The notes under the pieces are model-generated. The model worked only from the letters and a program-made list of their open reading frames with translations, had not been told where the DNA came from and ran no database searches. A stretch of DNA of 64,000 nucleotides from Marsupella aquatica (Eukaryota > Plantae > Marchantiophyta), in NCBI GenBank assembly GCA_973895155.1, contig OZ316892.1, forward strand, positions 17,288,357-17,352,356, written 5' to 3'. Of the stretch, positions 7,215 to 64,000 are shown piece by piece. The stretch's first letter is position 1; each line of letters starts with the position of its first letter. The position numbers and the translations under genes are program-made.

Positions 7215-8480
7215 TTACCACTGCTTCAGCTCTTGTGGGAGCAGGCATTCATTTTTGAACATTACAGCGGTGGCCAATTTTTTACCCAACCATCCATGGT
7301 GAATGAGCCCTCTAGAGCCAAGTCCACCAAGTAACCACCACTTTGTCTTTGAAGGCTGAGAGGTATTTTTGGGTGCCCCCAGAGTTATTCTAACGTGCGA
7401 ACTTTGCACAAGATCGTCAATGCACCCGACTAATGGTAGAGATCCTAGAGCTGAACGAGGTGGCATAGCTCTTAACCCTGCCTGCATACCTTCGATTTCC
7501 CATTTTGAAATGGATGGATAGAATGGTGTAGTTTCTGAAAAAAGTTTGTCCAGAGCTTGTGATCCCTCCTCTTTAGACACCAAGAAGGACGAATTGGTAG
7601 AACCCCAGTCCTTGGTGGCACCCAGAAGCACATTTCTCTCGCCTTGTGCAGCGAGCCATGTGCTTGACAGAATATTGGGTGCTCTGCTTTCATACATTTC
7701 AGTGAAGCCATCGGGCGCATGAAGCTTTGCAACAACACCTCGGCAAAGTGAAATGGGTAGCTTGTTGCACAACTCAGGCAGAAGACCTGCTTGGGCTCCA
7801 AGGCAAACTATAACAGCCTCATAATCACCACTAAGATCACGAAGAGAGTTGATCTTGTTTCTACGGAAAACTGCTTCTGTGCCAGGACTGCCAATCATTC
7901 CAGCCTGTCTCGCGAATTCTTCACATGCGACCCATAAAGCCTCAAGGTAGCGTTGCGGATGGATGTTGATTGCTTGCGGAATATGCAGCGCACGAGCATC
8001 TGCTGGCAGCACCAACCCTGGTAGTAGAATTCCAGCTTCTGAACCACTCAATAACCTTATTTTACTACTGTCGTTTTGGTCCTTCACATTCTTCTGAAAG
8101 GTTATGGCGTGCTTTTCCTGTCTTGCCAGCCTTAGGATACCTCTTCGCCACGCTAAAGGTGCTGTTGAACTGTCAAATCTTGTTGCTTCAGCCACAGCTA
8201 ATAACCTCAATGCTGCGGTCCAACCTTCGGCTCCCTTCCATAAGAGCTTACCTTTTGGATTATAGGGATGCAACAAGCCTCCGGATACACCTGACGCTCC
8301 TCCACCAACCCCAACTTCATCGAACAGGTCAACACACACAGGAGCCAACGAGTTCGTGTGCTGCAGCAGATGCCAAGCAACTGAGACACCACCAAACCCT
8401 GCCCCAAGCACAGCAAATCGTCGTGGTACTCCAGGCTGCACATTTGCCACAGCAGGCAGCGTAATTGATGCCATGGACAT
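7215..8480 (-). CDS. FAD-dependent oxidoreductase, DAO/glycine-oxidase-like family, intronless, 421 aa
   Basis: N-terminal dinucleotide-binding motif AVLGAGFGG, GASGVSGGLLHPY, GLRAMPP and C-terminal GGLGSRGL. Confidence 0.9.
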   Translation of the reverse strand: MSMASITLPAVANVQPGVPRRFAVLGAGFGGVSVAWHLLQHTNSLAPVCVDLFDEVGVGGGASGVSGGLLHPYNPKGKLLWKGAEGWTAALRLLAVAEATRFDSSTAPLAWRRGILRLARQEKHAITFQKNVKDQNDSSKIRLLSGSEAGILLPGLVLPADARALHIPQAINIHPQRYLEALWVACEEFARQAGMIGSPGTEAVFRRNKINSLRDLSGDYEAVIVCLGAQAGLLPELCNKLPISLCRGVVAKLHAPDGFTEMYESRAPNILSSTWLAAQGERNVLLGATKDWGSTNSSFLVSKEEGSQALDKLFSETTPFYPSISKWEIEGMQAGLRAMPPRSALGSLPLVGCIDDLVQSSHVRITLGAPKNTSQPSKTKWWLLGGLGSRGLIHHGWLGKKLATAVMFKNECLLPQELKQW

Positions 8481-8517
8481 CTGGGAGTGGGAGCAGGCTG
8501 CCAGTTCTCCTCGTACC

Positions 8518-23779: not shown

Positions 23780-24270
23780 ATGGCATTTGTTCCCATGTAT
23801 GCAAAGAGTGGCAGCATTGATGATGCTCAATGCGTTTGTTGACAGAATGATGCAACGTGATGTACTCACATGGAATATGATGGTTGGTGGACGTGCGGAA
23901 CACGGATATGGGAATGGAGCCTTGGAAGTCTTTAGAAAAATGAATGCAGAGGGAGTGAAGCCGGATGAGTGCCTATTTGTGGCAGTTTTGGTACCTTGTA
24001 GGCCTGCAGTAGAGGAAGGGTGCAACTTGTTTCTAGCTATAACCAAAGGTTATGGTATTAAACCTACAACCGTGCATTACACTTGCATGGTGGAACTTCC
24101 TGGGCGAGCCGGCCATTTGGAGGAAGCTTAGCATTTTATTCGTCGCATACCTCTGGAGCCAAATGCTACACCCTGGGGAGCCTTGCTTGGTGCCTGTAGA
24201 GCTCATGGTGATGTGGAATTTGCTGAAGGTGCTGCCAAAGAGGTTCCCCTGGACTTGAACGACCTGGTGG
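23780..24270 (+). pseudogene. PLS-class PPR (RNA-editing-factor type) fragment ending in an E domain
   Basis: MYAKSGSIDDA, frameshift, DRMMQRDVLTWNMMVGG...GVKPD...YGIKPTTVHYTCMVELPGRAGHLEEA*HFIRRIPLEPNATPWGALLGACRAHGDVEFAE. Frameshift plus in-frame TAG, no N-terminus and no DYW. Confidence 0.88.
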
Positions 24271-24924
24271 TGGAGACAAATGCTAAGCTGACACTTCTGT
24301 TCGTGTTCTGTAGGAGTGTAGATATTTGACAAATTCTTTTACGTCTGTGTCTATTCTCGTTCCGGCTATGATAGCTGTAATGTAAGAGAATTCCTTATGG
24401 ATCTATAGGGGCGACAATAGGTTCTTAAGATTGCCTCAAGATCTCCTGGACTGGAACGACCGGCTATGAGTATTAACTCGAGTGGAGTTGTTCACAGAAT
24501 TGGAGAGTTTGAGAGATTTGAGATAGATTTTGGTGGAGATGGGTCTCGATCACGTCCATGGTGGGAGACCTTGCTGTTGCGAGTCATCTTCGTCTTCAGG
24601 ACTACCGGCATACACCCCAATCAAGCTGAGTTGGCCCGTGCGGAATCTATGCAAGTTTAGACGCCTGCTCACCGCTTGTGGTAGCACTTTCTGGTGAACT
24701 CTTTAGTTTAATTGACGAGGAGGTTTGATTGCTCGTTTCCTCAGTACCGCATGAGCGGGATTTTCTACAAAATTTCTCGAGAGTTAAACAGGGAAGAAGA
24801 TGGTCACTCATCAGACTATTGGGCCGGTTGGGTACAAGCCGGGGAACCGTCTTTGCTGTGAACTTTGGGAAAGAAGTTAACTGGGAGGAGATTTGTCCGT
24901 CACAGATTGCGCGATTTGGTCAAT

Positions 24925-27660
24925 ATGGATCAGGGAATGGAGGGGGACATGAAAGCTGCACAATTTGTTTCTGTTTTTTTCCAATGGCAGGAAGATCACC
25001 CCGTTCAGGGAGAGGAGGTCTCTTTTGAGTTATTAGAGGCCACAGAGACTACCTTGGATATTAAAGCAAAGGGCATGTCGTTCCAGCTGTTACTTCCTGC
25101 AGTACTACTTCAGAAGGACGTTGTGTCTGATGAGGTAATCATTGCTATGAATCTGGATAATTCAGCTCCTAGCAGCCTTATGGTTGCAGTGAACGAGAAA
25201 CTGGAACGTGTTCCAATTGGTCCACGTGCGCTTGAACAGGGGTTGGATGTTATTGCCAAGGCACTGATAAGCTATGAAGGAAAGAGAAAACGGGAGCCAC
25301 AGAGTAAGGCTGTGCAGCTTCAAGGCGGGATGACTTTGCTCCATGATTTCACTTTTCCAATTGAGAGCTCAATTGGTCAGGCCAATACGGTTGAGGTACA
25401 CGAAGAAAAGTCATCAAACTATGATAGTGATGTTGGGTTGAGTTCAGATGGTCTGGAGGGACATTTCAAAGGTTCTCTTCAAGGGGTGATCAGAGAAGCC
25501 AGTGAGAGGTGTGAGGCAGCTCGGTATCGCAGTGTGGAGTCTTTTCTTTATGTACCTGTCGAACCAAGCTTTTCAGGTCCATCAGAGCTTTTGTATATGG
25601 ATGACATATTGAAGTTTTGCAAAGTCTCGGCTGTGTCTAACAAGTGCCAGGTGAGGATACAAGCCGAGGTGGTCGGCTTTGTCAATGATGTGAAAATAGC
25701 TGCTTCTCTTGGATTGCCATGCTCCAAAACTATCCAAATATTCCTAGAGTTTGACAAGCAATTCAGGGTTGAAAGGGGCCCGAGGCAGCCTTTCACATTG
25801 AACCGTGTCACTGCGGGACTTCAAATGGCAAGATGTGCGCAGTTTCTTCCGGATGTTGAAACCAGTTGGACTGACTTCACGGGAGGGGGATCACATGACG
25901 AATTTGAGGCAGAATGTAGGAAGTTTCATGGACGACGGACTGTGGCATATGGTACAACTCTGCTTATACCTGAACTGATCAAGGCTTTCTTCGCCTTCAG
26001 GAGTGGAAATTCTGCTGTAAACCCTCGAGCAAGACCTTGGAAAAATCATTACATGGATGCGGCTCTTGAGAGATTTGCCTTGCTAGAAAATCCATTGATT
26101 GGCCTAATATCTTTTATTGGATCTCAAATGAGGACCCTGCCGAGTTGGTGTGCCGTCTGCTGGAGTCTGCTTCCTACATCAGTTTGGCGACTAAGAACTT
26201 GCCAAAACGATTTGTGTTTATATGACTTTGAAGAGCTGGGGTTAGGGGCAACCATTCATCATGAGATTCAGGAATCGCCAGAGGTGGTGGAGTTGGAATT
26301 GTCTCTGGCATGTGCAGCTGCCTCCAGTGACCGGGATGTTTTTGAGCCTTTCCCATCATTTTTACTATCAGAAAGTGTCTTGAGGGGACGGAGCGGTTGG
26401 TTCTCTGAGACATCTAGGCAGGTTACTACCAGGACGGTGGACAGCTCATCAATTCCTATTGCGGCAAAGAAGATTGTTACTGGAGGAGTAACAACCTTTA
26501 TTCAGCAAAGAGAGAGTGATGGAAGTGAGAAAACGAACAAGCAATTGTCACTGCTGTTGGGAATTCTGCAAGACATCCCAAGTTTAGCAGATCTTAAACA
26601 GAGTGCTGGTGATGAGAATTCACTGAAAAAAAACCTATTTAAGGCGGCCTTTTCCATATGGAGAAAGACCTATCCTAGAGCAAGGGCGGCGCAATGTCAG
26701 ATGTGGCTTTCGTATGAACTTTTGAGGTTCATCCTGTCAACAAATAGGTTGTCCCTTCGCATCATGAGAGAGGAAGAAGAATTCGAACTCAGCGCCAAGC
26801 CCAAATTTCAGTTTGTGGTGATTCATGACTCTCCCGAGAAAGAAGCAATATTCAATGAGCGCAGAAAACAGAAAGGTTCTTTTTTTGCCTTCCATGGAAG
26901 TGGCCCTGGTAACTGGTACTCCATTTTGAGGAATGGGCTGAGGCCCATGAGCAATACTAAGTACATGTGTTCTGGAGCTGATTATGGTGAAGGAATCTAC
27001 CTTGCTGATAATTTTGACATTTCATATTCGTATGCCAGACGCAGCTCACAGCGTTCCTGGGATAACAGAAGTCGTTCCTGGGATAACGGAAGTTTGAGAA
27101 AAGGAATGGTAGTGATAGCCATCTGTGAAGTAATTGCAGGGGCCACTAGAGGACTGGCTAAGCATGGCCGTCGCCTAAATAAGCACATATTTGTTGTTCC
27201 ACCTGGTCAGGAGGATAGCGTCTCGGTGCGCTATTTGTTCGTGATGGATCAATTCTGTAATCATTCTGAATCACGATTATTTATCAGGGGGCGCATGTTG
27301 CAAGAAGGTTTTCCATCACCGCTTCAAATGGATCTGAGGGAGAAGTATGAGAGATTACAAAAGGAAGACCAGGTGCTGCAGGCGATCACTTTGCTAGAGC
27401 GAAGGAAGACAGCCTTCTGGAGAATGAAAGGGGAAATGTCCTGTCCCAAGACTGATACCGACCGTGTGGACAACAAGCTACCAATCCCTGCCACTACAGA
27501 GCCTGGTTGCTACGCATCACCTGGAAGTGAGGGAGAGTCTCCCACATCCAGTTATAGAGCGCCTAGCTCAAAAAGGTTCAAGGGCGAACTACACAAGGGC
27601 ATCATTGACAGCTACGGCAAGACAGGCTATCACTGCAAAGCTCACGACTGTACAAAATGA
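24925..27660 (+). CDS. PARP6/PARP8-like (clade 6) mono-ADP-ribosyltransferase, intronless, ~911 aa from the first ATG
   Basis: Cys cluster WCAVC...RTCQNDLCLYDF, DVFEPFP motif, catalytic FAFHGSGPGNWYSILRNGL...YGEGIYLA...HIFVVP (H-Y-I triad). Confidence 0.85.
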   Translation: MDQGMEGDMKAAQFVSVFFQWQEDHPVQGEEVSFELLEATETTLDIKAKGMSFQLLLPAVLLQKDVVSDEVIIAMNLDNSAPSSLMVAVNEKLERVPIGPRALEQGLDVIAKALISYEGKRKREPQSKAVQLQGGMTLLHDFTFPIESSIGQANTVEVHEEKSSNYDSDVGLSSDGLEGHFKGSLQGVIREASERCEAARYRSVESFLYVPVEPSFSGPSELLYMDDILKFCKVSAVSNKCQVRIQAEVVGFVNDVKIAASLGLPCSKTIQIFLEFDKQFRVERGPRQPFTLNRVTAGLQMARCAQFLPDVETSWTDFTGGGSHDEFEAECRKFHGRRTVAYGTTLLIPELIKAFFAFRSGNSAVNPRARPWKNHYMDAALERFALLENPLIGLISFIGSQMRTLPSWCAVCWSLLPTSVWRLRTCQNDLCLYDFEELGLGATIHHEIQESPEVVELELSLACAAASSDRDVFEPFPSFLLSESVLRGRSGWFSETSRQVTTRTVDSSSIPIAAKKIVTGGVTTFIQQRESDGSEKTNKQLSLLLGILQDIPSLADLKQSAGDENSLKKNLFKAAFSIWRKTYPRARAAQCQMWLSYELLRFILSTNRLSLRIMREEEEFELSAKPKFQFVVIHDSPEKEAIFNERRKQKGSFFAFHGSGPGNWYSILRNGLRPMSNTKYMCSGADYGEGIYLADNFDISYSYARRSSQRSWDNRSRSWDNGSLRKGMVVIAICEVIAGATRGLAKHGRRLNKHIFVVPPGQEDSVSVRYLFVMDQFCNHSESRLFIRGRMLQEGFPSPLQMDLREKYERLQKEDQVLQAITLLERRKTAFWRMKGEMSCPKTDTDRVDNKLPIPATTEPGCYASPGSEGESPTSSYRAPSSKRFKGELHKGIIDSYGKTGYHCKAHDCTK

Positions 27661-28358
27661 GACTGGGGAGCTCAAGCCGTGGGCATCCGGTGGAGCACGA
27701 ATGGAGTCAGCCACTGCAACACAGGCCATTACAGCAAAGCTCCCGAGTCTACAGACTGACACTGGGCAGTCAAAGCTGAGATCATCTTCTCCCAGTGGAG
27801 CTCGATTTGAGTCAGCCACTGCAACAGAAGCCATCACAAAGAGTTGAAGAATATTCAGAAAAAACTCGGAAGTCAAAGCAAGGAACATCTTCTTCCGGTG
27901 GTCTTGGCTCTCAGCCATTTCTGGCAAACATCACTGTCGAATTTCCGGAGGAGACTAATATTTACATATGGCACGTAACTTTGTCTCACAATCTGGTCAA
28001 GAGCCATGCTACCCTATACAAGGACCTGCAAGAGCAGGCTGTTTTGATGAAGCAGCCTGAATCTTATGTTCTTTTGGTATCCTTTTGAACCTCCATTTGT
28101 CAGAGTTGTTAGCCCCAAGTTCGTATTCTACACAGGACACGTCACAATTGGTGGGAGCATCTGCATGGAGCTACTTACTACCACTGGGTGGCTACCCTTG
28201 AAAGTGTCTTGGTTTAAATTGTGGATGCATTTATCGGAGGGCAGGGGAGGATCGACATGAGGTCTGTCTGGAAAGAATACTCGAAGGAAGAGTCACAGAG
28301 ATCTTTCACTCGAGTTGCTGAACAACATGGTTGGACTGGTAGCAAAAGCAGAAATTAA
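27570..28358 (+). pseudogene. Disrupted C-terminal UBE2Q-like ubiquitin-conjugating (E2) domain of the PARP gene
   Basis: Pieces in shifting frames: SATATEAIT / KELKNIQKK / NITVEFPEETNIYIWHV...LYKDL / [15 protein letters not shown]...[19 protein letters not shown] / [19 protein letters not shown]...YSKEESQRSFTRVAEQHGW...*. Confidence 0.85.
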
Positions 28359-28664
28359 GTCAATATGACACGCGTGTGGGCCTCAATCTACATAACGACT
28401 TTGGTTGTAACTGAGAACGAGGGCACAACTTTCATGAATTGCTAAAAAGTGTAATATATTGTAAAAGAGAAGTGGTCCTGAGCAGATTTTGAAAATATGG
28501 TCAATCCGGTTTTCGGGCAGAATGGAAGTGTCTCTGATATTCCAAGAGAAGTTGTCCGAGGTATAATACATTCTTTTGGCATTGGGTTGGAGGTGGGTAC
28601 GATGATTTTGAAAAGAGCATGGTTTAGTAATTTCTAGTAGTTCGGTGAGACATAATCCTACATA

Positions 28665-34933: not shown

Positions 34934-37900
34934 TCATACATTATCGTTATCTTCAGACTCCCAAACATCCCCTTCATCATCCTGCTTCGATGGGGAAACA
35001 CTTATAGGGAATTCCTTCACTGTGTCTGCAGTAACATCCATCCAAACATTTTTGCTGACCCCTTTTGGCATATCAGTAGTGACCTCTCCCGTTGACTTAG
35101 TGATTGGCATTCGGACTTTGTGGGCTGATTTGCGACCCCTTTCGGCTTGCAACTCTGCGGCCTTCTCGGATAATTTCCGCTTCCTTTTGGTCCTACCATT
35201 CACTCCAAGCTCTTCCTCTGCATTAACATTACACAAAAAAAGGCCCCTGAGAGACTTTGGGATAACAAATCAAAATCAGCTCATTATCGGGCAGGGACTG
35301 CCGGCCTTCTTACAAACAGCAGATGTACCCAAAATCCTGTCGAAGAGGGGTAATCTTTAGTCCCGATGGGTGAGGAGGCCGACAACGAAATCTTCAAATT
35401 CTTTGTAAATCTATACTCGTGCTGAGCTCAATCTTTACCTGGTATAAAATCGCCCATACAATTGGCAGTTAACTCCATCTCCATTAAACTGGGCCCTGGT
35501 TCGGAAGCAGGAGACCTGTCTGATTCTGTAGCACTGCTGCTAGAAGGTTTGGGTGGAGTTGTTGTGTGCTCACGAAATGATGTCACTAGAGGTTCATCCC
35601 GCACCGGCACAGTCGGTAAAAAATAGAGTCCATCTTGTGATTCATCCGAGTCACTAAATGCTGCTACTTTCTCCGTTGTTAAGATATCTACCTCCACATC
35701 GTCCTCCATCGACGGAACCTGTACCTGCAACACCTTCACAGTTCAAAAGAAAGGAACTACGTCCACAGAAACAGACCTAGTCAAAGGACTTGCACTGTAA
35801 AACGCGAGATTTTCAACATTTATCAAAAGGTTTCTTCCCGGCTTCTCAATCATTGAAGAACTAGGCCGGAAGAAAGACACTGCGAAACCTAAATCGTCTA
35901 TGTCAACATGCAGAATAATCACCCTCATTGCAGACACATGACTAGGAGTAATCCAGAGAATTAAATTTAATCTTCTGAGCCTGCAGTTCTCATACAATGT
36001 ACATGGGGCAGATGACAACCTTGCCGACGTCGAGAACAATGTCGAACTCATCTTCTTGTTCCACGTACTCCTCATTCTCTTCCAATTCTTTAAAATCTGG
36101 GGCAAATGCACTCCAATTCTCTGTGTAATCTTTAGCCCACAAATATATAGCCCCTGACATTGATACAGACGCAACAACCGGACGTGTTGGGTGCCAGGCT
36201 AGGTCAGACAGGCCCTCCTTAGGGCCTTCAAGTATGCGAGCAAGTTGCCCGAAATTCCTGTTCCATATGTGGATCTTGTGCTCTCCTTTATTGGCAGACG
36301 CTCCAACCACACATTCACCATCCCCGTTGAAGCAAGCAGCTTTCCAGTGCATCCTATTTACGGCGTCCTGATACTCTCTTGTCATTTGGAGACCTCCAGA
36401 GTGCCCGCTCTCAGAAAAATCTCCATTTGAAGATAAATCTATAATTTCAGACAATCGTGCAGCTGAGCCGTTCCTGGGCAGTCGATTTTCAAATACACGA
36501 ATGATTCTATCATTTGAGTTTGTCAGCAGGTATTGACCGTTTCGACTGAAAACAATGTGCCGAATCGCAGCACCTCCAGGTATCGGGACAACGGCTCTTA
36601 CCTTGTATGACTTTGCGTCAACAATCACTATCTCACCCCTAAAATTTCCAACATAAATTAAGTCACCCTTCTTATTAAAGCTGGCTGTAGAAGGCGAGTA
36701 AGCCGCATTGGCATCACCATGCTTCCCGCGTATACTGCCACCACTATTGTCCCCAATCACTGTGGGAACAACGACAGGTAAAGAACGAATGGTAAGGCCA
36801 TCAAAATCTACTGAAATTGGGGCACCACTCAGTGGACACGCCAAACACGAAGTGGGGACGGTTACTCCTGGATCCAAGAAGCAATGGAGGGCTGCTTGCG
36901 GTAGGGTAATCTCGGAGATTTTCACACCGTTGGCAACATCCCATAGCACGAGTCGCTTATCAGTTGAAGCTGCTAGCAAGCGATGCCCACACTTGGACCA
37001 GCTCACACTTGTCACCGGTGAAGTGCAATCAGGATCTCGTAACTCTTTCGCTACTCCGCGTGTATCAAAATCCCAGATAACACAAGCACCATCTGTACAC
37101 CCAGCTGTCCACCACAACACCGGCAAAACCATCCTCGTCAACAGCAAATACAGTACTTTTGACCAGAACAACTGCATCTGCATAACTAAGCCCCTGCCTC
37201 CTCAAGTCTATCCTTCTCATAAGGTAGTCAGGTCAGGTCCGCAGCGAATTTGGCAGAGCTCTGCTTTCAAGAAGAATAAAGGGACCAGGAGACCAGGCCC
37301 ATGGCCAAACAACAGACCCATAGATTACTAACTCTGTTCCCCATCACGCAAGAGTTTGAAACGGTAGCCATGATATCAGTACGATTTCTTCTATAATTCT
37401 GGAAATGCTGGACGGCCAGAGTCTTGACAAGTTCAAAAGAGCTAAAGCTGCATTCAGCAACCTCTAATTAGCCACCAGAACAGTATTATCAGCAATATCT
37501 GCTTATGAAGTGTGGAAAAAACCGTAACGGACCACCTTCGAAGTAAAAGGGTGATTTGTTGAAACCATTTGAAGCGGATATTTCCTGGGAAGTTTACAAA
37601 CATGACTGCCACTAAAATTATTGCATGTTTGCTGACGTAGGAGTTCACGCGGACTCGTTGAGAAGTGCATTCTAGAGAGCATGATTCTTCAATAGTCAGT
37701 TGTGGGGTTTCTCGGTCCAAGACATCTCTCAAAGCTGAGAATGAACTTAAACCACAAAATCTCAAAATTAAGCGGAAGCCGAACAATAAGTCAAAACAAT
37801 TACGGGCAATGCACATACCTGCTAGGAGTGTCCCTCGTCGATTGAAAGCTATACACTTCGCAACTCCATGCTCCAAATATTCTTCAATAACTTCCGGGAA

Positions 37901-39082: not shown

Positions 39083-39835
39083 CCAGAAACAAGTGTCGGG
39101 ATACAAACTGATTACCCTTTCCTTAATTAATTAAACATAATAGAGATGAGTTCCATGGATTACATGCTATTTCCTTCTTTTGCCTTGAAAACAGAAAGTT
39201 ACCCATCCAACAGAGTATAATCCTTTTTTTACTTGACAAATCAAAAACATCAGAAACAAGGGTTCGGGATACAAATTGATTACCCTTTCCTTAATTAATT
39301 ATTAACTAATTAAACATAATAGAGATGAGTTCCATGGATTACATGCTATTTCCTTCTTTTGCCTTGAAAACAGAAAGTTACCCATCCAACAGAGTATAAT
39401 CCTTTTTTTCCTTGACAAATCAAAAACATCAGAAACAAGGGGTCGGGATACAAAGTGATTACCCTTTCCTTAATTAATTAATTGAACATAATAGAGATGA
39501 GTTCCATGGATTACATTCTATTTCCTTCTTTTGCCTTGGAAACCTAAAGTTGACCCATCCAACAGAGTATAATCCTTTGTTTCCTTGACAAATCAAAAAC
39601 ATCAGAAACAAGGAGTTGGGATACAAAGTGATTACCCTTTCCTTACTTAATTAAACATATTAGAGATGAGTTCCATGGATTACATGCTATTTCCTTCTTT
39701 AGCCTTGAAAACCTAAAGTTGACCCATCCAACAGAGTATAATCCTTTTTTTTCCTTGAAAACTGAATGCTGACTCATCCAACAGCGGTCTTTCTTTTTTG
39801 CCTTGTACACCAAAACTTTACCCATCCAACAGAGG
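39083..39835. repeat. ~170-180-bp tandem repeat x4, upstream of RBL
   Basis: cagaaacaag..gggatacaaa.tgattaccctttccttaattaattaaacataatagagatgagttccatggattacatgc...cccatccaacagagtataatcc starting near 39083, 39251, 39430 and 39603. Confidence 0.92.
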
Positions 39836-39839
39836 ATAG

Positions 39840-40090
39840 GCGATGAACTCCAGAGCATGCACCATTGTGGGGTAGCCCACAAGGGGGTCACACCTTGGAC
39901 CAGGAGGGAGAGAGGGTTGGACCAGAGCCCAAAGCGGACCAGCCAGGGCTGAGAAAAAGCCAATACTCCCACCACTACACCCCACCCACACACACACTCA
40001 CCCTCCACAACCCTTGCTTGTGCAGGGGAGATTGAACCTGGAACTTCTAGATTCTAGGCGCATCCCTTGGCCAACTCACCAAAGCCAGTT
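39840..40090 (-). mobile_element. tRNA-derived SINE-like element
   Basis: Minus strand reads GGCTTTGGTGAGTTGGCCAAGGG...GGTTCAATCTCCCC: Pol III A-box and B-box-like motifs at tRNA-like spacing, followed by a GC-rich body unlike the AT-rich flanks. Confidence 0.45.
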
Positions 40091-40319
40091 TTTGTTTTGT
40101 TTTAATTTATAAAAATGGCCTCGAGGACCCGCCCCAAAAGACCGGGGGGGGGGGGGCAACGGGGGAGGGGAGAGCCCGGCCCAGGACCCCCAGGGTTGCT
40201 GAAAAGCTTGCCAAGAGGCCTCACCAAAGCCAGTTGGTTGCTATTTCCATTTCATCCTTGCTGCATCTCTCTTTCTTTGGTTTGCTTCTTCACTGAAAAC
40301 TGCTTTTTGCACCTTCACT

Positions 40320-41340
40320 AGAAATGGATTCCATGTTATTTACTCTTCATCTTTGCCCATCCCTGTTTTTTGTTTGCACCCCCACTAAAAACTAAAAACA
40401 AAGTAATCACAATTCCTCGAACACACTAGAGATACAGGGAAAAAAAAACCTTGACTAAGCAAGGATTCCATGCTATTTTCTCTTCCTCTTTGTCCCATCC
40501 CTGTTTTTTTGTTTGCATCTTCACTAAGAAAGTACTCCATGTTATTTCCTCTTCATCTTTGCCCATCCCTGTTTTTTGTTTGCATCCTCACTAAGAAAGT
40601 ACTCCATGTTATTTCCTCTTCATCCTTGCCCATCCCTGTTTTTTGTTTGCACCCCCACTAAAAAAAGAAACAAAGCAATCACAGTTCCTCGAACACACTA
40701 GAGATACAGGGAAAAAAAACCTTGACTAAACAAGGATTCCATGCTATTTTCTCTTCCTCATTGTCCCATCCCTGGTTTTTGTTTGCATCCTCACTAAGAA
40801 AGTACTCCATGTTATTTCCTCTTCATCTTTTTCCATCCCTGTTTTTTGTTTGCATCCTCACTAAGAAAGTACTCCATGTTATTTCCCCTTCATCCTTGCC
40901 CATCCCTGTTTTTTGTTTGCACCCCCACTAAAAAAAGAAACAAAGCAATCACAGTTCCTCGAACACACTAGAGATACAGGGGGAAAAAAAACCTTGACTA
41001 AACAAGGATTCCATGCTAGTTCTCTTCCTTATTGTCCCATCCCTGGTTTTTGTTTGCATCCTCACTAAGAAAGTACTCCATGTTATTTCCTCTTCATCTT
41101 TGCCCATCCCTGTTTTTTGTTTGCACCCCCACTAAAAAAAGAAACAAAGCAATCACAGTTCCTCGAACACACTAGAGATACAGGAAAAGAAAACCTTGAC
41201 TAAACAAGGATTCCATGCTATTTTCTCTTCTTCTTTGCCCCATCCCTGTTTTTTTGTTTGCATCCTCACTAAGAAAGTACTTCATGGTATTTCGTCTTCA
41301 TTTTTGCCCCATCCCTGTTTTTTGTTTGCAACCTCACCAA
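40320..41340. repeat. Higher-order satellite: ~64-bp subunits plus a spacer, in ~200-265-bp blocks
   Basis: ccatgttatttcctcttcatctttgcccatccctgttttttgtttgcatcctcactaagaaagtact subunits alternate with aatcacagttcctcgaacacactagagatacagg(a)n ccttgactaa, seen 4 times. Confidence 0.92.
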
Positions 41341-41519
41341 AAAGTGATACAAAGTGACTTTTGTGATTTATTTCATTGTATTTTTTAGTGCATTAAGTTT
41401 CCATATAGTCTCCCTTCTTTTGATGAGGGGATTATGCAAAACACTATAAGTGGAGGAAATCTAAAGCTTAAATGTAGTTTACCATACAAAACAAAGTAAT
41501 GAATTGTATCAAACATCAC

Positions 41520-43666: not shown

Positions 43667-44389
43667 TTAAGTTTCCGGTGGTGTCAAATCCACTTTCTCC
43701 ACCGGAACCAGAACTTCATTCGTGCGCAAAAACCACGGAGTGAACGGATCATTATATCTCGCTAGCACATGCTCTCCAATAACCCTAAACCCCGATGCCT
43801 CCTCTTGCAAGGCAGTGCGCAGGATTCCTAGCTTCTTTAGCGTAAGGCTCTCGGTCGCCACTCCACTGAACGTGATGGCTGCGACAGTCCTCGCCGAGAT
43901 CTCTCTCAACTTCACCCTTTCGTCTGTTGGCTTTGGCACGGAATCCATCGTATACTTCGCAGGTAAAATAAATTGCATGGTCGTCAACGGCTTCGTCTTC
44001 TTCTTCTCCCCATCTTCCTCCTCGGTGCCTTCTTCCATAGTGATCACGGGCGCTGTCATCGCAATGGCCTCCGAGTCCGAGCTCTTGGTGATCACGGGGG
44101 CGGTCATGGCGATTTTCTGAGCCTCTTCTCCGCCCTCATCCTTCATGTCCGCATCCTTTGAATCTGCGATAGGCGGGCCTGATTTTTTGTTGGCAGGGCT
44201 TCCGAAGGCGCCGATGTACGAGGCGAGGATCATGAATCCGCCATCTCGCCCTCCTCTCATGGTGGACGCGTCATACGAGACCTCTGCGGCAACGCAAGGT
44301 GAGTATTCGCGGATCTCGTACTTGATCCCTTTCTTAATTACGGTGTGCTTCGGAGTCTCGACGAGAATTTTGCCTAGGAACATCCCCAT
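43667..44389 (-). CDS. SOUL haem-binding family protein, 240 aa
   Basis: MGMFLGKILVETPKH...YEIREY...GFMILASYIG...IAMTAPVIT (twice)...MQFILP...LARYNDPFTPWFLRTNEV. Confidence 0.95.
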   Translation of the reverse strand: MGMFLGKILVETPKHTVIKKGIKYEIREYSPCVAAEVSYDASTMRGGRDGGFMILASYIGAFGSPANKKSGPPIADSKDADMKDEGGEEAQKIAMTAPVITKSSDSEAIAMTAPVITMEEGTEEEDGEKKKTKPLTTMQFILPAKYTMDSVPKPTDERVKLREISARTVAAITFSGVATESLTLKKLGILRTALQEEASGFRVIGEHVLARYNDPFTPWFLRTNEVLVPVEKVDLTPPET

Positions 44390-44457
44390 CTCGACGGACG
44401 AGGATCAACAAAGCTAAACTGCACTACACTAGACAAACTTCGTAACGTAATGGACAC

Positions 44458-44938
44458 GATCGACTAGGCAAAGTAGAATTGCTCGCTGAAACTCGAATCC
44501 CCGTCAGATTATTCACAGTACACAGCGAAATTCATCATCCGATGAGCTGAATAGGATCGACTCGGCAAAGTAGAGTTGCTCGCTGAAACTCGAATCCCCG
44601 TCAGATTATTCACAGTACACAGCGAAATTCCTCATCCGATGAGCTGAACAGGATCGACTCGGCAAAGTAGAGTTGCTCGCTGAAACTCGAATCCCCGTCA
44701 GATTATTCACAGTAGACAGCGAAATTCCTCTCCCGATGAGCTGAACAGGATCGACTCGGCAAAGTAGAATTGTTCGCTGAAACTCGAGTCCCCGTCAGAT
44801 TATTCACAGTAGACAGCGAGATTCCTCTCCCGATGAGCTGAACAGGATCGACTCGGCAAAGTAGAGTTTCTCGCTGAAACTCGAATCCCCGTCAGATTAT
44901 TCACAGTAGACAGCAAAATTCCTCTCCCGGTGAGCTCA
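44458..44938. repeat. 97-bp tandem repeat x5, starting ~70 nt upstream of the SOUL ATG
   Basis: gatcgact starts at 44458, 44555, 44652, 44749 and 44846. Units are nearly identical. Confidence 0.95.
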
Positions 44939-46502: not shown

Positions 46503-46818
46503 TACAAGCACACTAAATTGATCTCAAGACTAATAAACATAAAACATAAAATAGTTCTAAGGCTAACAATCAAGTTAGTACCCAAGCATGGAGGTAAATA
46601 ATAAACAAGACATGTGCACAAGAGGGGAAGAGTTCCTTACAGTGTTGCGAGTCCGACACGATAGATCAAACAAATGTGAATAAGGAGAGTGTGCTCCTCT
46701 TCACTTTATTTATAGTGCCCCTTTGTGTTTTCCAAGAGGGCATGGATCGATACCTTGACCCTTGGATGGAAGCCAAGTGGCAAGCATCAAGCACCTATAA
46801 GTGTGCTAGTACTATTCA

Positions 46819-47128
46819 TAGTTGGTGGAACTACCGTGCGTAGTTGGTGGAATTATTACGCGTAATTGGTGGAACTACTATACGTAATTGGTGCAACTAC
46901 TATGCGTAGTTGGTGAAACTACTATGCGTAGTTGGTGAAACTACTATACGTAATTGGTGTAACTACTATGCGTAGTTGGTGAAACTACTATACATAATTG
47001 GTGTAACTACTATGCGTAGTTGGTGAAACTACTATGCGTAATTGGTGCAACTACTATGCGTAGTTGGTGGAATTACTATGCATCTAGTTTGTAAAACTAC
47101 TATGCGTAAATGGTGGAACTACTGTGTA
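46819..47128. repeat. 22-bp minisatellite x~14
   Basis: Consensus tagttggtg(g/a/c/t)aactactatgcg. Confidence 0.92.
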
Positions 47129-52704: not shown

Positions 52705-52998
52705 CTACCACCACCCGTAACGAAGATCGATATACTTGTTCTTAATCCAACGCCAACTACTTCTGACCGACGACTTCATTCTCCCTTCGACGGTATACAC
52801 CTTGTAAGACGCCACACGCTTCCTGCGCTTCATTTCAGGGTCCTCCGTTCCAAACCCCCACGAGTTTGACTCCGAAGGCTTGTAACGCTTAATTTGATAC
52901 GGCTCCTCGTAATGTCCTCCGTAAGACTTGGTGCCATAGCCAGCCCCGTTAGAGCCCCCGTTGTACGACTCGCCACGGCGCTCCATAGACATGGACAT
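52705..52998 (-). CDS. DUF3511 family small protein. First in-frame ATG at 52998, possibly extended to a CTG at 53037
   Basis: C-terminal WGFGTEDPEMKRRKRVASYKVYTVEGRMKSSVRSSWRWIKNKY...YGWW is the DUF3511 signature. Confidence 0.9.
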   Translation of the reverse strand: MSMSMERRGESYNGGSNGAGYGTKSYGGHYEEPYQIKRYKPSESNSWGFGTEDPEMKRRKRVASYKVYTVEGRMKSSVRSSWRWIKNKYIDLRYGWW

Positions 52999-53551
52999 GC
53001 CGTAGCTCTTGGACGACGTTCCCGACCGTCCCGCCAGCTTGACAGATTTTTCAGGCCCAAAGAACTGAAACGTCCCCCGATGCAATTCACCACCGTTACG
53101 TCCTCGTCTCTCAGCACTCCGCAGTACTGCAATTCCCGGCTCTTTCTCGATCAATCTCCCCGCTTGACCTCCAACCAACTCCCCACGATATGCAAATGCA
53201 CCGAGTCAGGCCGCTCCACAAACCCGCACTCTCCACGAAAACTTCGGCTCTCCAACTGATTCGATCGTCACACCATTCACGACAAACGGATTCAAGCAAC
53301 CAGAAAGCGAGCGAAGCTGTCCAAACTGATGCACACAATTGACGAGCGAACACCGAAGTGAGATGACTACCGGGATCGAAGGACTGGGGCTGGGACTGGA
53401 GCGATCGCAGCGAGACACCGATCAATAATGCATCGGGTTGACATCGCCACCCTGATTGCAGCCACAGAGGGCTTTACTCCGCTTTAGCCTTTAGGCCTCT
53501 AGCCACCAAACCACTATAGGTTCCATAGTCTGACAAACCGGATCAAAGAAT

Positions 53552-60720: not shown

Positions 60721-62879
60721 CGCTGTGTGCCGCACCTTAGGAGAGGATCATTTGAATGTTGTGTGCTGCCGTGACATTGGAGAGGATCGAGGCTAGGTAG
60801 ACTGTGGAGGCCAGGAGACTATTGCTGACGCAAGTTCCAGGGCAAGTTTGGAGAGGAGGTAGATTGTCGAGGTCGACTGTTACTGTCATTCCGCTTTCAA
60901 TTGGTTGATATTGGTATCTGGTTGCCTCTATCGCTTGCATTGCCTCTATCGCCTACACTCACCATCGCCATGTATTGTGTGCTCACTGTCATTGCCATCT
61001 TGGAGGTGCGCACGATTGTGGTCCAGTGTTCTGCTTATTGTGATTGCCAACTACTTCTTATGCGCCTAGACCATTTGACTGCTTCCTGTGCGCCATCACT
61101 TGGAGTTGGGTCCCAGATCATTGCAAGTTGTTGCATCATCGTCCCAAACCATTGTGACAGCTTGGGACATTACATCGAGCTTGGGAGGTCGCAGCGAGTT
61201 GGCCTCATTGTTGCCTTGGTCCTCTGTTCCCCTACTGACATGATTACTACTTGCGCGATCCTCCCTGTTGCGTTGAAGAGGTTGGAGGTCGAGAGGAGGG
61301 TTGCATTGGAGAGGAGGCCGGAGGTTGAGAGGAGCTGTTGCATTTGAGAGGTGTTGCGGACTTGCATTTTTTGTGCAGCACTTGCGGCTCATGTTTTAGT
61401 GTAGTTTGCTTTGAGCTTTCGCTTGATACTTTCTTTTGATGTATTATTTTGCTGACATTTGAATAGGAGGAAGGCGGCGCTCTGAAGAAATAGTGGGAGG
61501 ACGTCGTTGCCTGGCTAAACGTTTGGATCGAGCTCATTGTGGAGGTCACGATTGTCTGTACACATTGCGAAGGTCTGTACACATTGTTGTTTTGCTGCAT
61601 TCATAATCATTGCTTCAATTTGTAATGTGCTTCAACACGTCGCCTTAATGTTTGTTGGTGCCTCACATTCATTCCCGCATTCATTCTATCCTGGTTGTGG
61701 AATAGGGTCTACTATGGATCGCAAGGCTGGGAGGACTACTGGGTGTGCGAGTTCGGAGCTCCATCTGTTTGTGGGAAATCGGAGGAGTATTGCTGTGCAG
61801 CGCTGCTGCAACATTGGAGCTCTAGTGGACTGTGCCAGAGGAGGCCGGGAGGACTGTTGGTGCAAGTTTGGAGGCTCCCCATTTTCTTTGTGAGAAATCG
61901 AAGGTCGATTGCTATGCGCTGCCACCATTTTGGATCTTTAGTCAACTGTGGAGGCTAGGAGGAGTATTGTTGCTGCGAGTTTGGAGCTCCAATTTCTGCA
62001 TGAGAAATTGGAGGATTGTTGTTTGCTGCCGCAACCTGGATCTCTAGTTGACTGTGGAGGCCGAGAGGACTACTGCTTCCGCGAGATTGATTCTCTTTGA
62101 GACAACTAGGAGGACTGCTATTGCCACGAGTTTGGAGGTCGGGAGGACTGCTATTGTCGCGAGTTTGAAGGACTGTTCGGAGGCCGGCCGGAAGGACTGC
62201 GCAAGTTCAAGAGCCTGTCAAGACGTTCGCTACTGCTAGTCAACTTTGAGCAGTGAAGGTTAGTGGTCTGTTGCCTATCATTTTCATGCCCTTTGGACAT
62301 TGCTCATCGTCCTGTTGTTGACTGTAAGACTAAACAATGTCATAGTACAGGTCAACATTATTGTCTGCAAGGGCTACATTTTAAATCTGGGTTGGCATCC
62401 CCCACTCGCATCCGGAAGGACATTTGTCATCTTCATTTTCCCCACATTGTGTATTGCTTGCTATATTCTTGGTCACTAGTGCGGGCATCATCACGCAGCC
62501 CCAGACCCTCACTGCTATAGAAGACACTATCTGTGGACTGTGCTTCATCTCTGGTTTCTTACTCAATTGTTTCTCTTGCTCTTTTGTTTCCAATGTCCTT
62601 TTATTTGCTACTCAATTTGTTGAATCTTTTGTCCACTATTTATGGAAACGCTGTCAATAGTTGTGTAAACGCCATTTGCCACAGTCAATGTCTTGATGGA
62701 GACAGAGTAGCCATTCAATATTCAGACTATCTATGGAATGTGCAGATTCAGTCGATCTTGGGTGCTGAGGAAGGAGTTTGGGCTCTGATCCGACTACAGA
62801 AGTTGTTGGGAGGATCCAAGTAAGCTCCACACTGTTGCAGAGGACAACACGGCCTTATAGCTTTAGGGTTTATTGTCCC

Positions 62880-64000
62880 ATGGGTCGTAGAAATGAGTCT
62901 ACACCAAAGCCCTGTTCAGTTTCAAAGCCAATTTTGAAGGGTGTGAATGCCTTCTTAGTTCCGCATGGATTTTCAAGAGCTCGTTTTGAAGTTTTGCGCA
63001 GAAAGCTAATTGAACGTCATGGTCAGCTTTGCCCTATTGCTTCCAGCAACACCACTCACATTGTTGCTGGTTCTTGGGGAGCACTCATGTCCAAGTGGAC
63101 ATGGTCTGATGTAAATTCCCTCATTCAAGAGCATGCATTGAAAGTTGTCTCATTTGAATGGATGTGCGAATCCCTCAAAGTAGGAGTCCTAGTAGACGAA
63201 GGCCCTTTCAACTTAATGTTGACTGAGGTAGAGTCTAAGGCAGACTGTACCAAGAGAGAAGTAGAAAAGATTAAACAAGATAAGGCAGCTGCAGTTTGGA
63301 GAAGTGTAAACTTGATCATGCCAAAACGTAGATGTGTGTAGCTTACTCTAAATGTAACCTCTGCTCTTGAAGCAATTTTATAAAGTGTTACTTGTCTGCT
63401 GCAATTCTTTGCATGTCTGCTGTTTGTGCTCTTCAAGCACTGTGTATAGGACTTTTGGTGTGTAGCTTTTTAAAACTTAGTTGCTTCTCTTTTTTTTGCA
63501 GGGACATTCTAGCACAAGGCAGAAATTGGGGAAGTTTAGGGTCTGAGCAAAGGTCGGCCCCTGTACCTTGTTTGTTGTGAACTTGTCATTTTGTTGGAGT
63601 GAGCACAATCTCAGTCTAGGTGCATTCCTAGGTGCATTGAAGATGGTTGTCACACGCAGTGCTCTATCTGAGTACCATCAGCAGAAGGGTGTGCGATTTC
63701 GTGTGAAGATGATCCACTCTGGGATCGTGCCTACAGACTGTGCTGTAAGCTGGGGCTATCCATCTGTGCCTGGCAACCATTACAACAGGCTGAGTACATC
63801 CCCACCAGTGCCAAATAGTATCCGTCTTGTTAAAGACGTAGATGGAGTGTTGGATGAGAGCTGTGTCTTATTGGAGGCTTGTCTCCATTGTCACACCCAA
63901 ACATGTCATCATTGTAGGGGAGGTGACTCAAACATAGTGCAGACTGAAGCACAGTACATGGCAAGAATGGCATGGGGCGGTTGCCTAGCGTGGAATACTT
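62880..64000 (+). CDS. BRCT-domain protein (BRCT resembles the DNA polymerase lambda N-terminus), partial. Probable further exons ~63502-63552 and ~63615 to the window end
   Basis: ILKGVNAFLV...RRKLIERHGQL...TTHIVA...VVSFEWMCESLKVGVLVDEGPF fits the BRCT pattern (THIV, W..ES). The downstream frame is open to the window end and contains CLHCHTQTCHHC. The donor after the BRCT exon is not resolved. Confidence 0.6.

What the first reader, a model, noticed from the sequence alone, without database searches (positions are those of the whole stretch)
24925..28358. PARP6/8-like ADP-ribosyltransferase-E2 fusion losing only its ubiquitin-conjugating half
Seen: an uninterrupted intronless ORF of ~2.7 kb with a PARP6/8-type Cys cluster and an H-Y-I catalytic domain. 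It is followed at once by a UBE2Q-like E2 domain with about five frameshifts or deletions and a premature TAA in ~800 bp, although the active-site segment [14 protein letters not shown] remains. Known: clade-6 PARPs with a C-terminal UBC domain occur in fungi and non-seed plants and are essentially uncharacterised in plants. H-Y-I triads indicate mono-ADP-ribosylation. Inference: the frameshift near 27570 detached the E2 and selection kept only the transferase, giving a stand-alone plant mono-ART. It is a natural experiment in ADP-ribose/ubiquitin crosstalk.
Basis: partly seen in the sequence, partly recalled or inferred. Interest (0 to 1): 0.78.

Follow-up and report, generated by a model that had tools for sequence, protein, structure and literature searches.

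The report
Decaying duplicate of liverwort PARP-E2 gene
This is a spare second copy of a plant gene that joins an ADP-ribose-attaching enzyme to a ubiquitin-conjugating enzyme; the ubiquitin half is broken while the other half still reads through, but an apparently unbroken copy is present in the same sequencing data and a close relative has wrecked both halves of the spare, so it is likely a duplicate dying in steps rather than a new enzyme.

Summary
24925-27660 is an open, intronless 911-aa PARP6/8-like (clade 6) frame with a C4 zinc finger and H657-Y692-I755. The E2 part behind it carries five indels and a TAA, reproduced with no difference in contigs of a public run. The interpretation needs three corrections. 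(1) It is a duplicate: all four runs laid at 80% also hold a ~88% alike paralogue with the missing E2 letters. (2) The oldest lesion is the -1 at ~27840, shared with sister organism B (1-3% apart), not the one near 27570-27585. (3) In B this copy is dead in the transferase half too: a stop at 26032 and -1 at 26664 and 26772, in 3 of 3 runs. Conserved-site counts (0 of 91 changed in zinc finger-ART, 4 of 50 in E2) suggest the E2 went first and the transferase stayed constrained for a while. Whether it is still selected or expressed is unresolved. E2-less clade-6 PARPs are already common in plants (16 complete ones among 38 plant-clade relatives). Verdict: real, most likely a duplicate decaying stepwise; modest interest.

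The parts
24925..27660 (+). Open intronless frame, 911 aa, PARP6/8-like (clade 6) protein without its E2; last ~25 residues are out of frame
   Evidence: covered without difference by contigs of X1
24925..26140 (+). N-terminal region: two predicted alpha/beta domains with disordered inserts; RWD-like by analogy with PARP6/8 and fungal PARP2 (inferred from PMC10450202 and PMC13720257, not shown by my fold search)
   Evidence: model pLDDT mostly above 85 for residues 11-120 and 221-280; no RWD chain among the rows listed
26149..26217 (+). C4 zinc-finger motif C409-x2-C412-x13-C426-x4-C431
   Evidence: first three Cys in 56 of 56 relatives, fourth in 55 of 56; fits CX2CX9-19CX4C of PMC4245714
26800..27252 (+). 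ADP-ribosyltransferase core with H657 (26893), Y692 (26998), I755 (27187)
   Evidence: Pfam PARP residues 640-746, E 2.9e-10; best fold match human PARP16, E 1.5e-9, TM 0.76 over the target; triad columns
27052..27093 (+). In-frame 21-nt tandem duplication in a loop of the catalytic domain
   Evidence: organism B contigs over 26843-27238 have 0 gaps, so it is shared
27583..27586 (+). Lesion 1: +1 base; leads to the present stop at 27658-27660; absent from run X4 of organism B
27587..27838 (+). Former linker: ~99-105 nt repeats that resemble the start of the E2 first helix; also present in P0002
27838..27840 (+). Lesion 2 (oldest): -1 base at the first helix of the E2, TGA follows at 27845; shared with organism B
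   Evidence: no gap here in X3 record 16, X4 record 23, X5 record 31; the paralogue has the extra base
27841..28358 (+). Broken UBE2Q-type E2 domain, ancestral stop at 28356-28358; catalytic Cys codon at 28162-28164 still present
   Evidence: Pfam UQ_con on one fragment, E 7e-4, below the curated cut-off; 134 of 175 residues identical to P0002 when read with X at breaks
27860..27863 (+). Lesion 3: -1 base; absent from X3, X4 and X5
   Evidence: table 4
28077..28078 (+). Lesion 4: 20-nt deletion removing a core strand of the E2; state in organism B not shown
   Evidence: (21 letters put in over 27838-28113 in the paralogue, one of them lesion 3)
28194..28199 (+). Lesion 5: 10-nt deletion; absent from X3, X4 and X5
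28215..28217 (+). Lesion 6: TAA in place of a Gln codon; state in organism B not shown
   Evidence: X1 record 8 identical

Best explanation
This locus is the second copy of a duplicated clade-6 PARP-E2 fusion gene with a broken E2 half and an open transferase half, and it is likely a redundant duplicate decaying in steps. Shown: a paralogue about 12% diverged carries the E2 letters missing here; one -1 indel at the first E2 helix is shared by organisms A and B; after their split A gained at least three more lesions, all 3' of the catalytic domain, while B gained a stop and frameshifts in the transferase half. Inferred: the first lesion cut the protein to about 970 residues ending just before the E2; the E2 then evolved freely while the zinc finger-ART core stayed under purifying selection for a time; the copy has since become dispensable. 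If transcribed, A would make a 911-aa protein predicted to be a mono-ADP-ribosyltransferase with no ubiquitin-conjugating activity, but no selection on it today is demonstrated.
For: Two copies at similar depth in 4 of 4 runs laid at 80%; 252 of 2073 and 36 of 276 letters differ from the paralogue in the two halves. B's copy: stop at 26032 (R370) and -1 at 26664 and 26772 in X3, X4 and X5; further -1 at 25615 in X4. Order of loss: window-specific changes at columns conserved in at least 90% of 18 outgroup fusions and in P0002 are 0 of 91 in zinc finger-ART and 4 of 50 in the E2; neutrality since duplication would give about 11 of 91. Relaxation of this copy: among the 40 of 418 paralogue differences shown, 13 amino-acid changes are window-derived and 4 paralogue-derived, 5 unresolved (p 0.049). 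A versus B: 12 of 33 shown differences synonymous against ~27% neutral, p 0.15. By my hand count, A-derived replacement steps (about 7) are nearly as many as in dead B (about 10).
Against: A has 0 disabling lesions in 2658 nt where B runs show at least 3-4, on branches of similar length, and none of A's six replaced codons hits a conserved column, while B hits P637 and L185. This leans to continued selection but is not significant (0 vs 3-4: p 0.06-0.13; 2x2 tables p 0.045-0.12). Long-lived E2-less relatives in moss and conifers show the truncated form can be kept. In moss, long 3' UTRs do not predict nonsense-mediated decay (PMC6009662 passages), so the message could be stable. The paralogue was seen only as fragments: its full frame was not assembled.
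Confidence: 0.55

Rival explanations
1. Working stand-alone mono-ADP-ribosyltransferase: after losing the E2, this copy is still expressed and selected in organism A, and only organism B has lost it.
For: Open 2.7-kb frame, intact C4 finger and H-Y-I triad, 0 of 91 conserved core columns changed; all A-specific lesions lie 3' of the catalytic domain; confident fold like PARP16; E2-less clade-6 proteins kept in Physcomitrium, Selaginella and conifers.
Against: Dead in all 3 B runs only 1.2-2.6% away; 13 vs 4 excess of replacements over the paralogue; the A branch is too short (about 0.7-1.3%) for 0 of 91 to be informative (P 0.07-0.24 under neutrality); chosen for study because it looked intact.
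Confidence: 0.33
2. The whole copy died at once (promoter loss or first frameshift), and the 3' clustering is chance plus a more mutable 3' end.
For: B's dead copy also has more lesions per base in the 3' part (X4: at least 2 in 776 nt vs 4 in 2658 nt); the E2-versus-PARP contrast weakens at looser conservation cut-offs (p 0.16-0.18).
Against: At the neutral time implied by the E2 (3.8%, range 1-10%) about 7 of 91 core columns should have changed; 0 did (P 0.0006 at the point estimate). Homopolymer runs are not denser at the 3' end (11.6 vs 15.4 per kb).
Confidence: 0.1
3. The lesions are assembly errors or are spliced around, and the gene is an ordinary full-length fusion.
For: Three of five indels sit in short single-base runs.
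Against: Contigs of X1 match the window letter for letter across all lesions; lesion 2 recurs in three runs of two other studies; two lesions delete 20 and 10 nt of the E2 core, which splicing cannot supply.
Confidence: 0.01

Closest known systems
Clade-6 PARP-E2 fusions (fungal clade 6A / PARP-Ubc / fPARP2; moss, fern, algal and Calypogeia fissa homologues such as P0002)
   Same: Same order of parts: N-terminal region, C4 finger, helical extension plus ART with H-Y-I, linker, UBE2Q-type E2; 66% identical and colinear with P0002
   Different: E2 destroyed by five indels and a stop; a duplicate with an apparently unbroken paralogue
E2-less plant clade-6 PARPs: Physcomitrium P0020, Selaginella P0035, conifer proteins (Taxus P0026/P0034, Cryptomeria P0031/P0038/P0039, Pinus P0037)
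   Same: Same end state. P0020 is sister to the E2-bearing Physcomitrium P0017 (SH-aLRT 94), the same duplicate-then-lose pattern
   Different: Those losses look old and stable (Taxus-Cryptomeria pair); here the E2 remnant is still 77% identical to a working one and the copy is dead in a sister organism. Their DNA was not checked for E2 remnants
Human PARP6 and PARP8 (H-Y-I, mono-ADP-ribosylating; PMC9149570 table, PMC10450202 passages)
   Same: E2-less clade-6 architecture with C4 finger, helical extension and H-Y-I
   Different: Distant (the animal PARP6-like P0067 hits at E 1e-26 over 43% of the searched region); activity of the plant protein untested
Arabidopsis SRO2 (clade 2)
   Same: A plant mono-ADP-ribosyltransferase whose mark antagonises ubiquitination (PMC9861866 passages)
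   Different: Different clade and domains; shows that plant mono-ARTs and ADP-ribose/ubiquitin crosstalk are already described

Membership tests
Clade-6 PARP6/8-like ART | PARP catalytic domain with PARP16-like helical extension | tested here: met
   Pfam PF00644 40.4 bits above cut-off 26.7, weak PF18084; the ten best fold matches are all PARP16 chains
Clade-6 PARP6/8-like ART | CX2CX9-19CX4C zinc finger before the ART | tested here: met
   C409, C412, C426, C431
Clade-6 PARP6/8-like ART | H-Y-I triad, no catalytic Glu | tested here: met
   H657, Y692, I755; I755 aligns with the Ile of IWV in PARP6-like P0067, and 38 of 56 relatives have Ile there. Assigned by alignment, not by superposition
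Clade-6 PARP6/8-like ART | N-terminal RWD (E2-like) domain | tested here: inconclusive
   alpha/beta domains predicted, but the whole-chain fold search listed only ART chains; domains were not searched separately
Clade-6 PARP6/8-like ART | Mono-ADP-ribosylation activity | not testable with these tools
   needs enzyme assay
PARP-E2 fusion (PARP-Ubc) | In-frame C-terminal UBCc domain with active Cys | tested here: not met
   stop at 27658-27660; E2 in four fragments. Ancestrally met; apparently met by the paralogue
Functional stand-alone gene | Expressed and under present purifying selection | tested here: inconclusive
   A-versus-B tests not significant; expression could not be tested
Duplicated pseudogene | Functional paralogue present and disabling lesions | tested here: inconclusive
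   paralogue present; met for the E2 half in A and for the whole copy in B; not met for the PARP half in A

The most novel reading that the evidence does not exclude
Plant clade-6 PARP-E2 fusions repeatedly split their two activities after duplication (E2-less copies in moss, lycophyte and conifers; a Cryptomeria copy that keeps the E2 and loses the catalytic Tyr), and this locus is that split caught in progress: a newborn, still-selected stand-alone mono-ART in organism A, lost in sister organism B, next to an intact fused paralogue.
Probability: 0.3. Interest if true: 0.5.

Novelty: new member of a known kind. Interest (0 to 1): 0.3.

Why it matters
As a decaying duplicate it is ordinary. 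Its value is as a dated series: intact fusion, E2-less copy and fully dead copy among close relatives, in a PARP clade described as poorly characterised in the passages read (PMC4245714, PMC13720257). If the copy in A proved expressed and selected, fused and unfused enzymes from one genome could be compared to ask what the E2 does for the transferase. The wider pattern of repeated E2 loss in land plants is arguably the more useful lead; three paper searches returned no study of it, which does not cover subscription journals.

Tried and rejected
No whole genome is held for the window, so the paralogue could be seen only as contig fragments; tblastn finds no second copy within the 64 kb. Run search: no RNA holder listed; this says nothing on expression. 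A search among shorter proteins found 5 distant hits and neither the paralogue nor B's copy. One search read the last E2 piece in the wrong frame; its counts are void and were redone. The careful tree did not finish; the quick tree with SH-aLRT only is used, and my E2 pattern missed P0059-P0061, whose ends look like divergent E2s; P0019 and P0036 look truncated and were dropped from the count of 16. A target-site duplication around the frame (9-nt repeat at 24919 and 28359) was rejected because the paralogue's likeness runs on to ~28416. Nonsense-mediated decay as the killer of the truncated message was considered; the moss paper argues against long 3' UTRs as a trigger. The promoter scan is for bacterial promoters and is irrelevant here. 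Earlier findings: none. A full dN/dS could not be computed because the read tables show 40 of 418 and 40 of 138 differences. No complex prediction was run.

Full report
Observation. The + strand frame 24925-27660 is open for 911 residues. Pfam finds the PARP catalytic domain at residues 640-746 (E 2.9e-10) and a sub-threshold UQ_con match on one downstream fragment. The best of 76 relatives is P0002 of the leafy liverwort Calypogeia fissa, a 1174-aa PARP-E2 fusion, 66% identical and colinear from the first Met. I infer from this that the window is a liverwort; no genome is held. Against P0002 the 3' part has +1 at ~27585, -1 at ~27840, -1 at ~27863, a 20-nt deletion at 28077/8, a 10-nt deletion at ~28197 and TAA at 28215. 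Read with X at the breaks, the E2 remnant is 134 of 175 residues identical to P0002, so the loss is recent.

The lesions are real. Six runs hold the stretch; five were laid. Listed contigs of X1 (organism A) tile 24900-28113 and 28146-28400 with no other letter and no gap. X1 may be the source sample, so this excludes assembly error only. Two deletions remove E2 core sequence, so splicing cannot restore it.

It is a duplicate. At 80% likeness all four runs laid show a second copy at similar depth (X1: 18.8 vs 12.6 and 15.5 vs 16). It differs at 252 of 2073 letters in the PARP half and 36 of 276 in the E2. It carries the missing letters: 21 put in over 27838-28113, 10 at 28195-7 and the extra base at 27838. 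It is also intronless where seen and is not within the window. I saw it only as fragments, so 'intact' is inferred from the indels shown (12 of 37 rows); the indel rows shown for it look frame-neutral. The mechanism of duplication was not tested.

A sister organism dates the lesions. Organism B's copy of the window gene is 1.2%, 1.4% and 2.6% away in X3, X4 and X5 (listed pieces). It lacks lesion 1 (shown for X4), lesion 3 and lesion 5 (all three runs), but all gaps in the contigs that span ~27840 are accounted for elsewhere, so lesion 2 is shared. Lesion 2 lies at the first helix of the E2 and leads to TGA at 27845, leaving about 970 residues. The state of lesions 4 and 6 in B is hidden in the cut tables. 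In B the transferase half is dead: a stop at 26032 (R370) and -1 at 26664 and 26772 in 3 of 3 runs from two studies, plus -1 at 25615 in X4 and further gaps in X5; the His codon lies downstream at residue 657. B has its own E2-side lesions at 27636 and 27942.

Selection, for. At columns conserved in at least 90% of 18 outgroup fusions and in P0002, window-specific changes are 1 of 111 in the PARP half (0 of 91 in zinc finger-ART) and 4 of 50 in the E2 (Fisher p 0.03; 3 of 158 vs 5 of 59, p 0.04, at 80%; p 0.16 and 0.18 at 70% and 60%). Neutrality since the duplication would have changed about 11 of the 91. So the core was constrained for most of the copy's life and probably after the E2 was released.

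Selection, against or unresolved. The A branch is about 1% long, and 0 of 91 is expected by chance with P 0.07-0.24. Of the 40 differences shown (of 138), 33 lie in the PARP half; 12 are synonymous against ~27% expected, p 0.15. A-derived replacements (S383R, K537T, D546G, N582T, M600L, G746K; polarised by hand with P0002 and the paralogue) all fall at variable columns, but are about as many as B's. No disabling hit in A versus 3-4 in B gives p 0.06-0.13; lesion-by-half tables give p 0.045-0.12 depending on the two undated lesions. Against the paralogue, 13 replacements are window-derived and 4 paralogue-derived among the 40 of 418 rows shown, nearly all N-terminal (p 0.049), so this copy was already relaxed. 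Expression was not testable.

What the protein would be. The model (pLDDT 76.7, pTM 0.71) is confident through residue ~835 apart from three inserts and disordered after it. The ten best fold matches are human PARP16 chains (best E 1.5e-9). C409/412/426/431, H657 and Y692 are conserved in 55-56 of 56 relatives, and I755 aligns with the Ile of a PARP6-like animal protein. H-Y-I enzymes PARP6 and PARP8 are listed as mono-ADP-ribosylating (PMC9149570, table and passages). Mono-ART activity is therefore predicted, not shown. The new stop leaves at least 698 nt of extra 3' UTR; in moss a long 3' UTR did not predict decay (PMC6009662, passages), so a truncated message could persist (inference).

Comparison with what is known. 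Clade-6 PARP6/8 homologues with a UBCc domain are described in fungi, Physcomitrella and Chlamydomonas, with the CX2CX9-19CX4C motif (PMC4245714 and PMC2964712, passages). The domain order RWD, C4 finger, helical extension, ART, E2 is described for fungal PARP2 and, without E2, for PARP6/8 (PMC13720257, PMC10450202, passages). Eighteen of 322 fungal PARP-Ubc proteins lack a detectable UBCc (bioRxiv 10.64898/2026.07.25.740670, passages; supplements not seen and might list more). In my quick tree of 57 proteins the plant clade has 39 rows: 20 with E2, the window, 2 apparently truncated predictions and 16 E2-less proteins with a complete ART, including Physcomitrium P0020 (sister to its E2-bearing paralogue P0017), Selaginella and two conifer groups. 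Starred branches force at least 7 changes of the E2 label over the whole tree, one of which is probably a miss of my pattern. Cryptomeria P0053 is the mirror case: E2 kept, catalytic Tyr lost. A plant mono-ART that counters ubiquitination, SRO2, is already reported (PMC9861866, passages). Searches listed no paper on liverwort or conifer clade-6 PARPs; subscription journals are mostly not covered.

Verdict. The feature is real and well read. It is a clade-6 PARP6/8-like gene, no longer a PARP-E2 fusion. Most likely (0.55) it is a redundant duplicate decaying stepwise, E2 first. A still-working stand-alone mono-ART in organism A remains possible (0.33), and would be a new member of a form that plants already have many times. 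Interest 0.3.

Noticed in passing
protein P0053 (Cryptomeria japonica, 928 aa): Mirror case: keeps a complete E2 but has lost the catalytic Tyr and part of the donor loop of the ART, inside a conifer group whose other members lack the E2.
   Followed up: partly
proteins P0020/P0017 (Physcomitrium), P0035 (Selaginella), P0024-P0039 (conifer groups): E2-less clade-6 PARPs recur across land plants; several conifer ones have replaced the third triad residue (Tyr, Thr, Ala, Phe, His).
   Followed up: partly
window 23781-24329 (+): Broken pentatricopeptide-repeat gene fragment with an in-frame stop at 24129-24131, about 600 nt upstream of the PARP start.
   Followed up: partly
window 24919-24927 and 28359-28367: The same 9-nt word covers the start codon and follows the ancestral stop directly; probably chance, since likeness to the paralogue continues beyond it.
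   Followed up: partly
window 27609-27901: Three imperfect ~99-105 nt repeats in the linker, each resembling the start of the E2 first helix; present in Calypogeia P0002, not in the moss and fern relatives shown.
   Followed up: partly
run X5 record 30 (window 27368-27563) and run X4 (window 28316-28348): An X5 contig is 97% like the window copy and then runs on unlike it at 27563, where the paralogue also departs (gene conversion or a chimeric contig); X4 holds contigs both with and without a 31-nt skip, suggesting more than one haplotype.
   Followed up: no
window 7218-8516 (-), 35993-37201 (-), 43670-44404 (-), 52708-53205 (-), 62769-63338 (+): Ordinary neighbours: FAD-dependent oxidoreductase, WD40 protein, SOUL heme-binding protein, DUF3511 protein, BRCT-domain protein; no link to the finding seen.
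   Followed up: no
window 46810-47123, 44454-44936, 39124-41354: Tandem arrays (14 copies of 22 nt; 5 copies of 97 nt; 170-270 nt units) in non-coding DNA.
   Followed up: no
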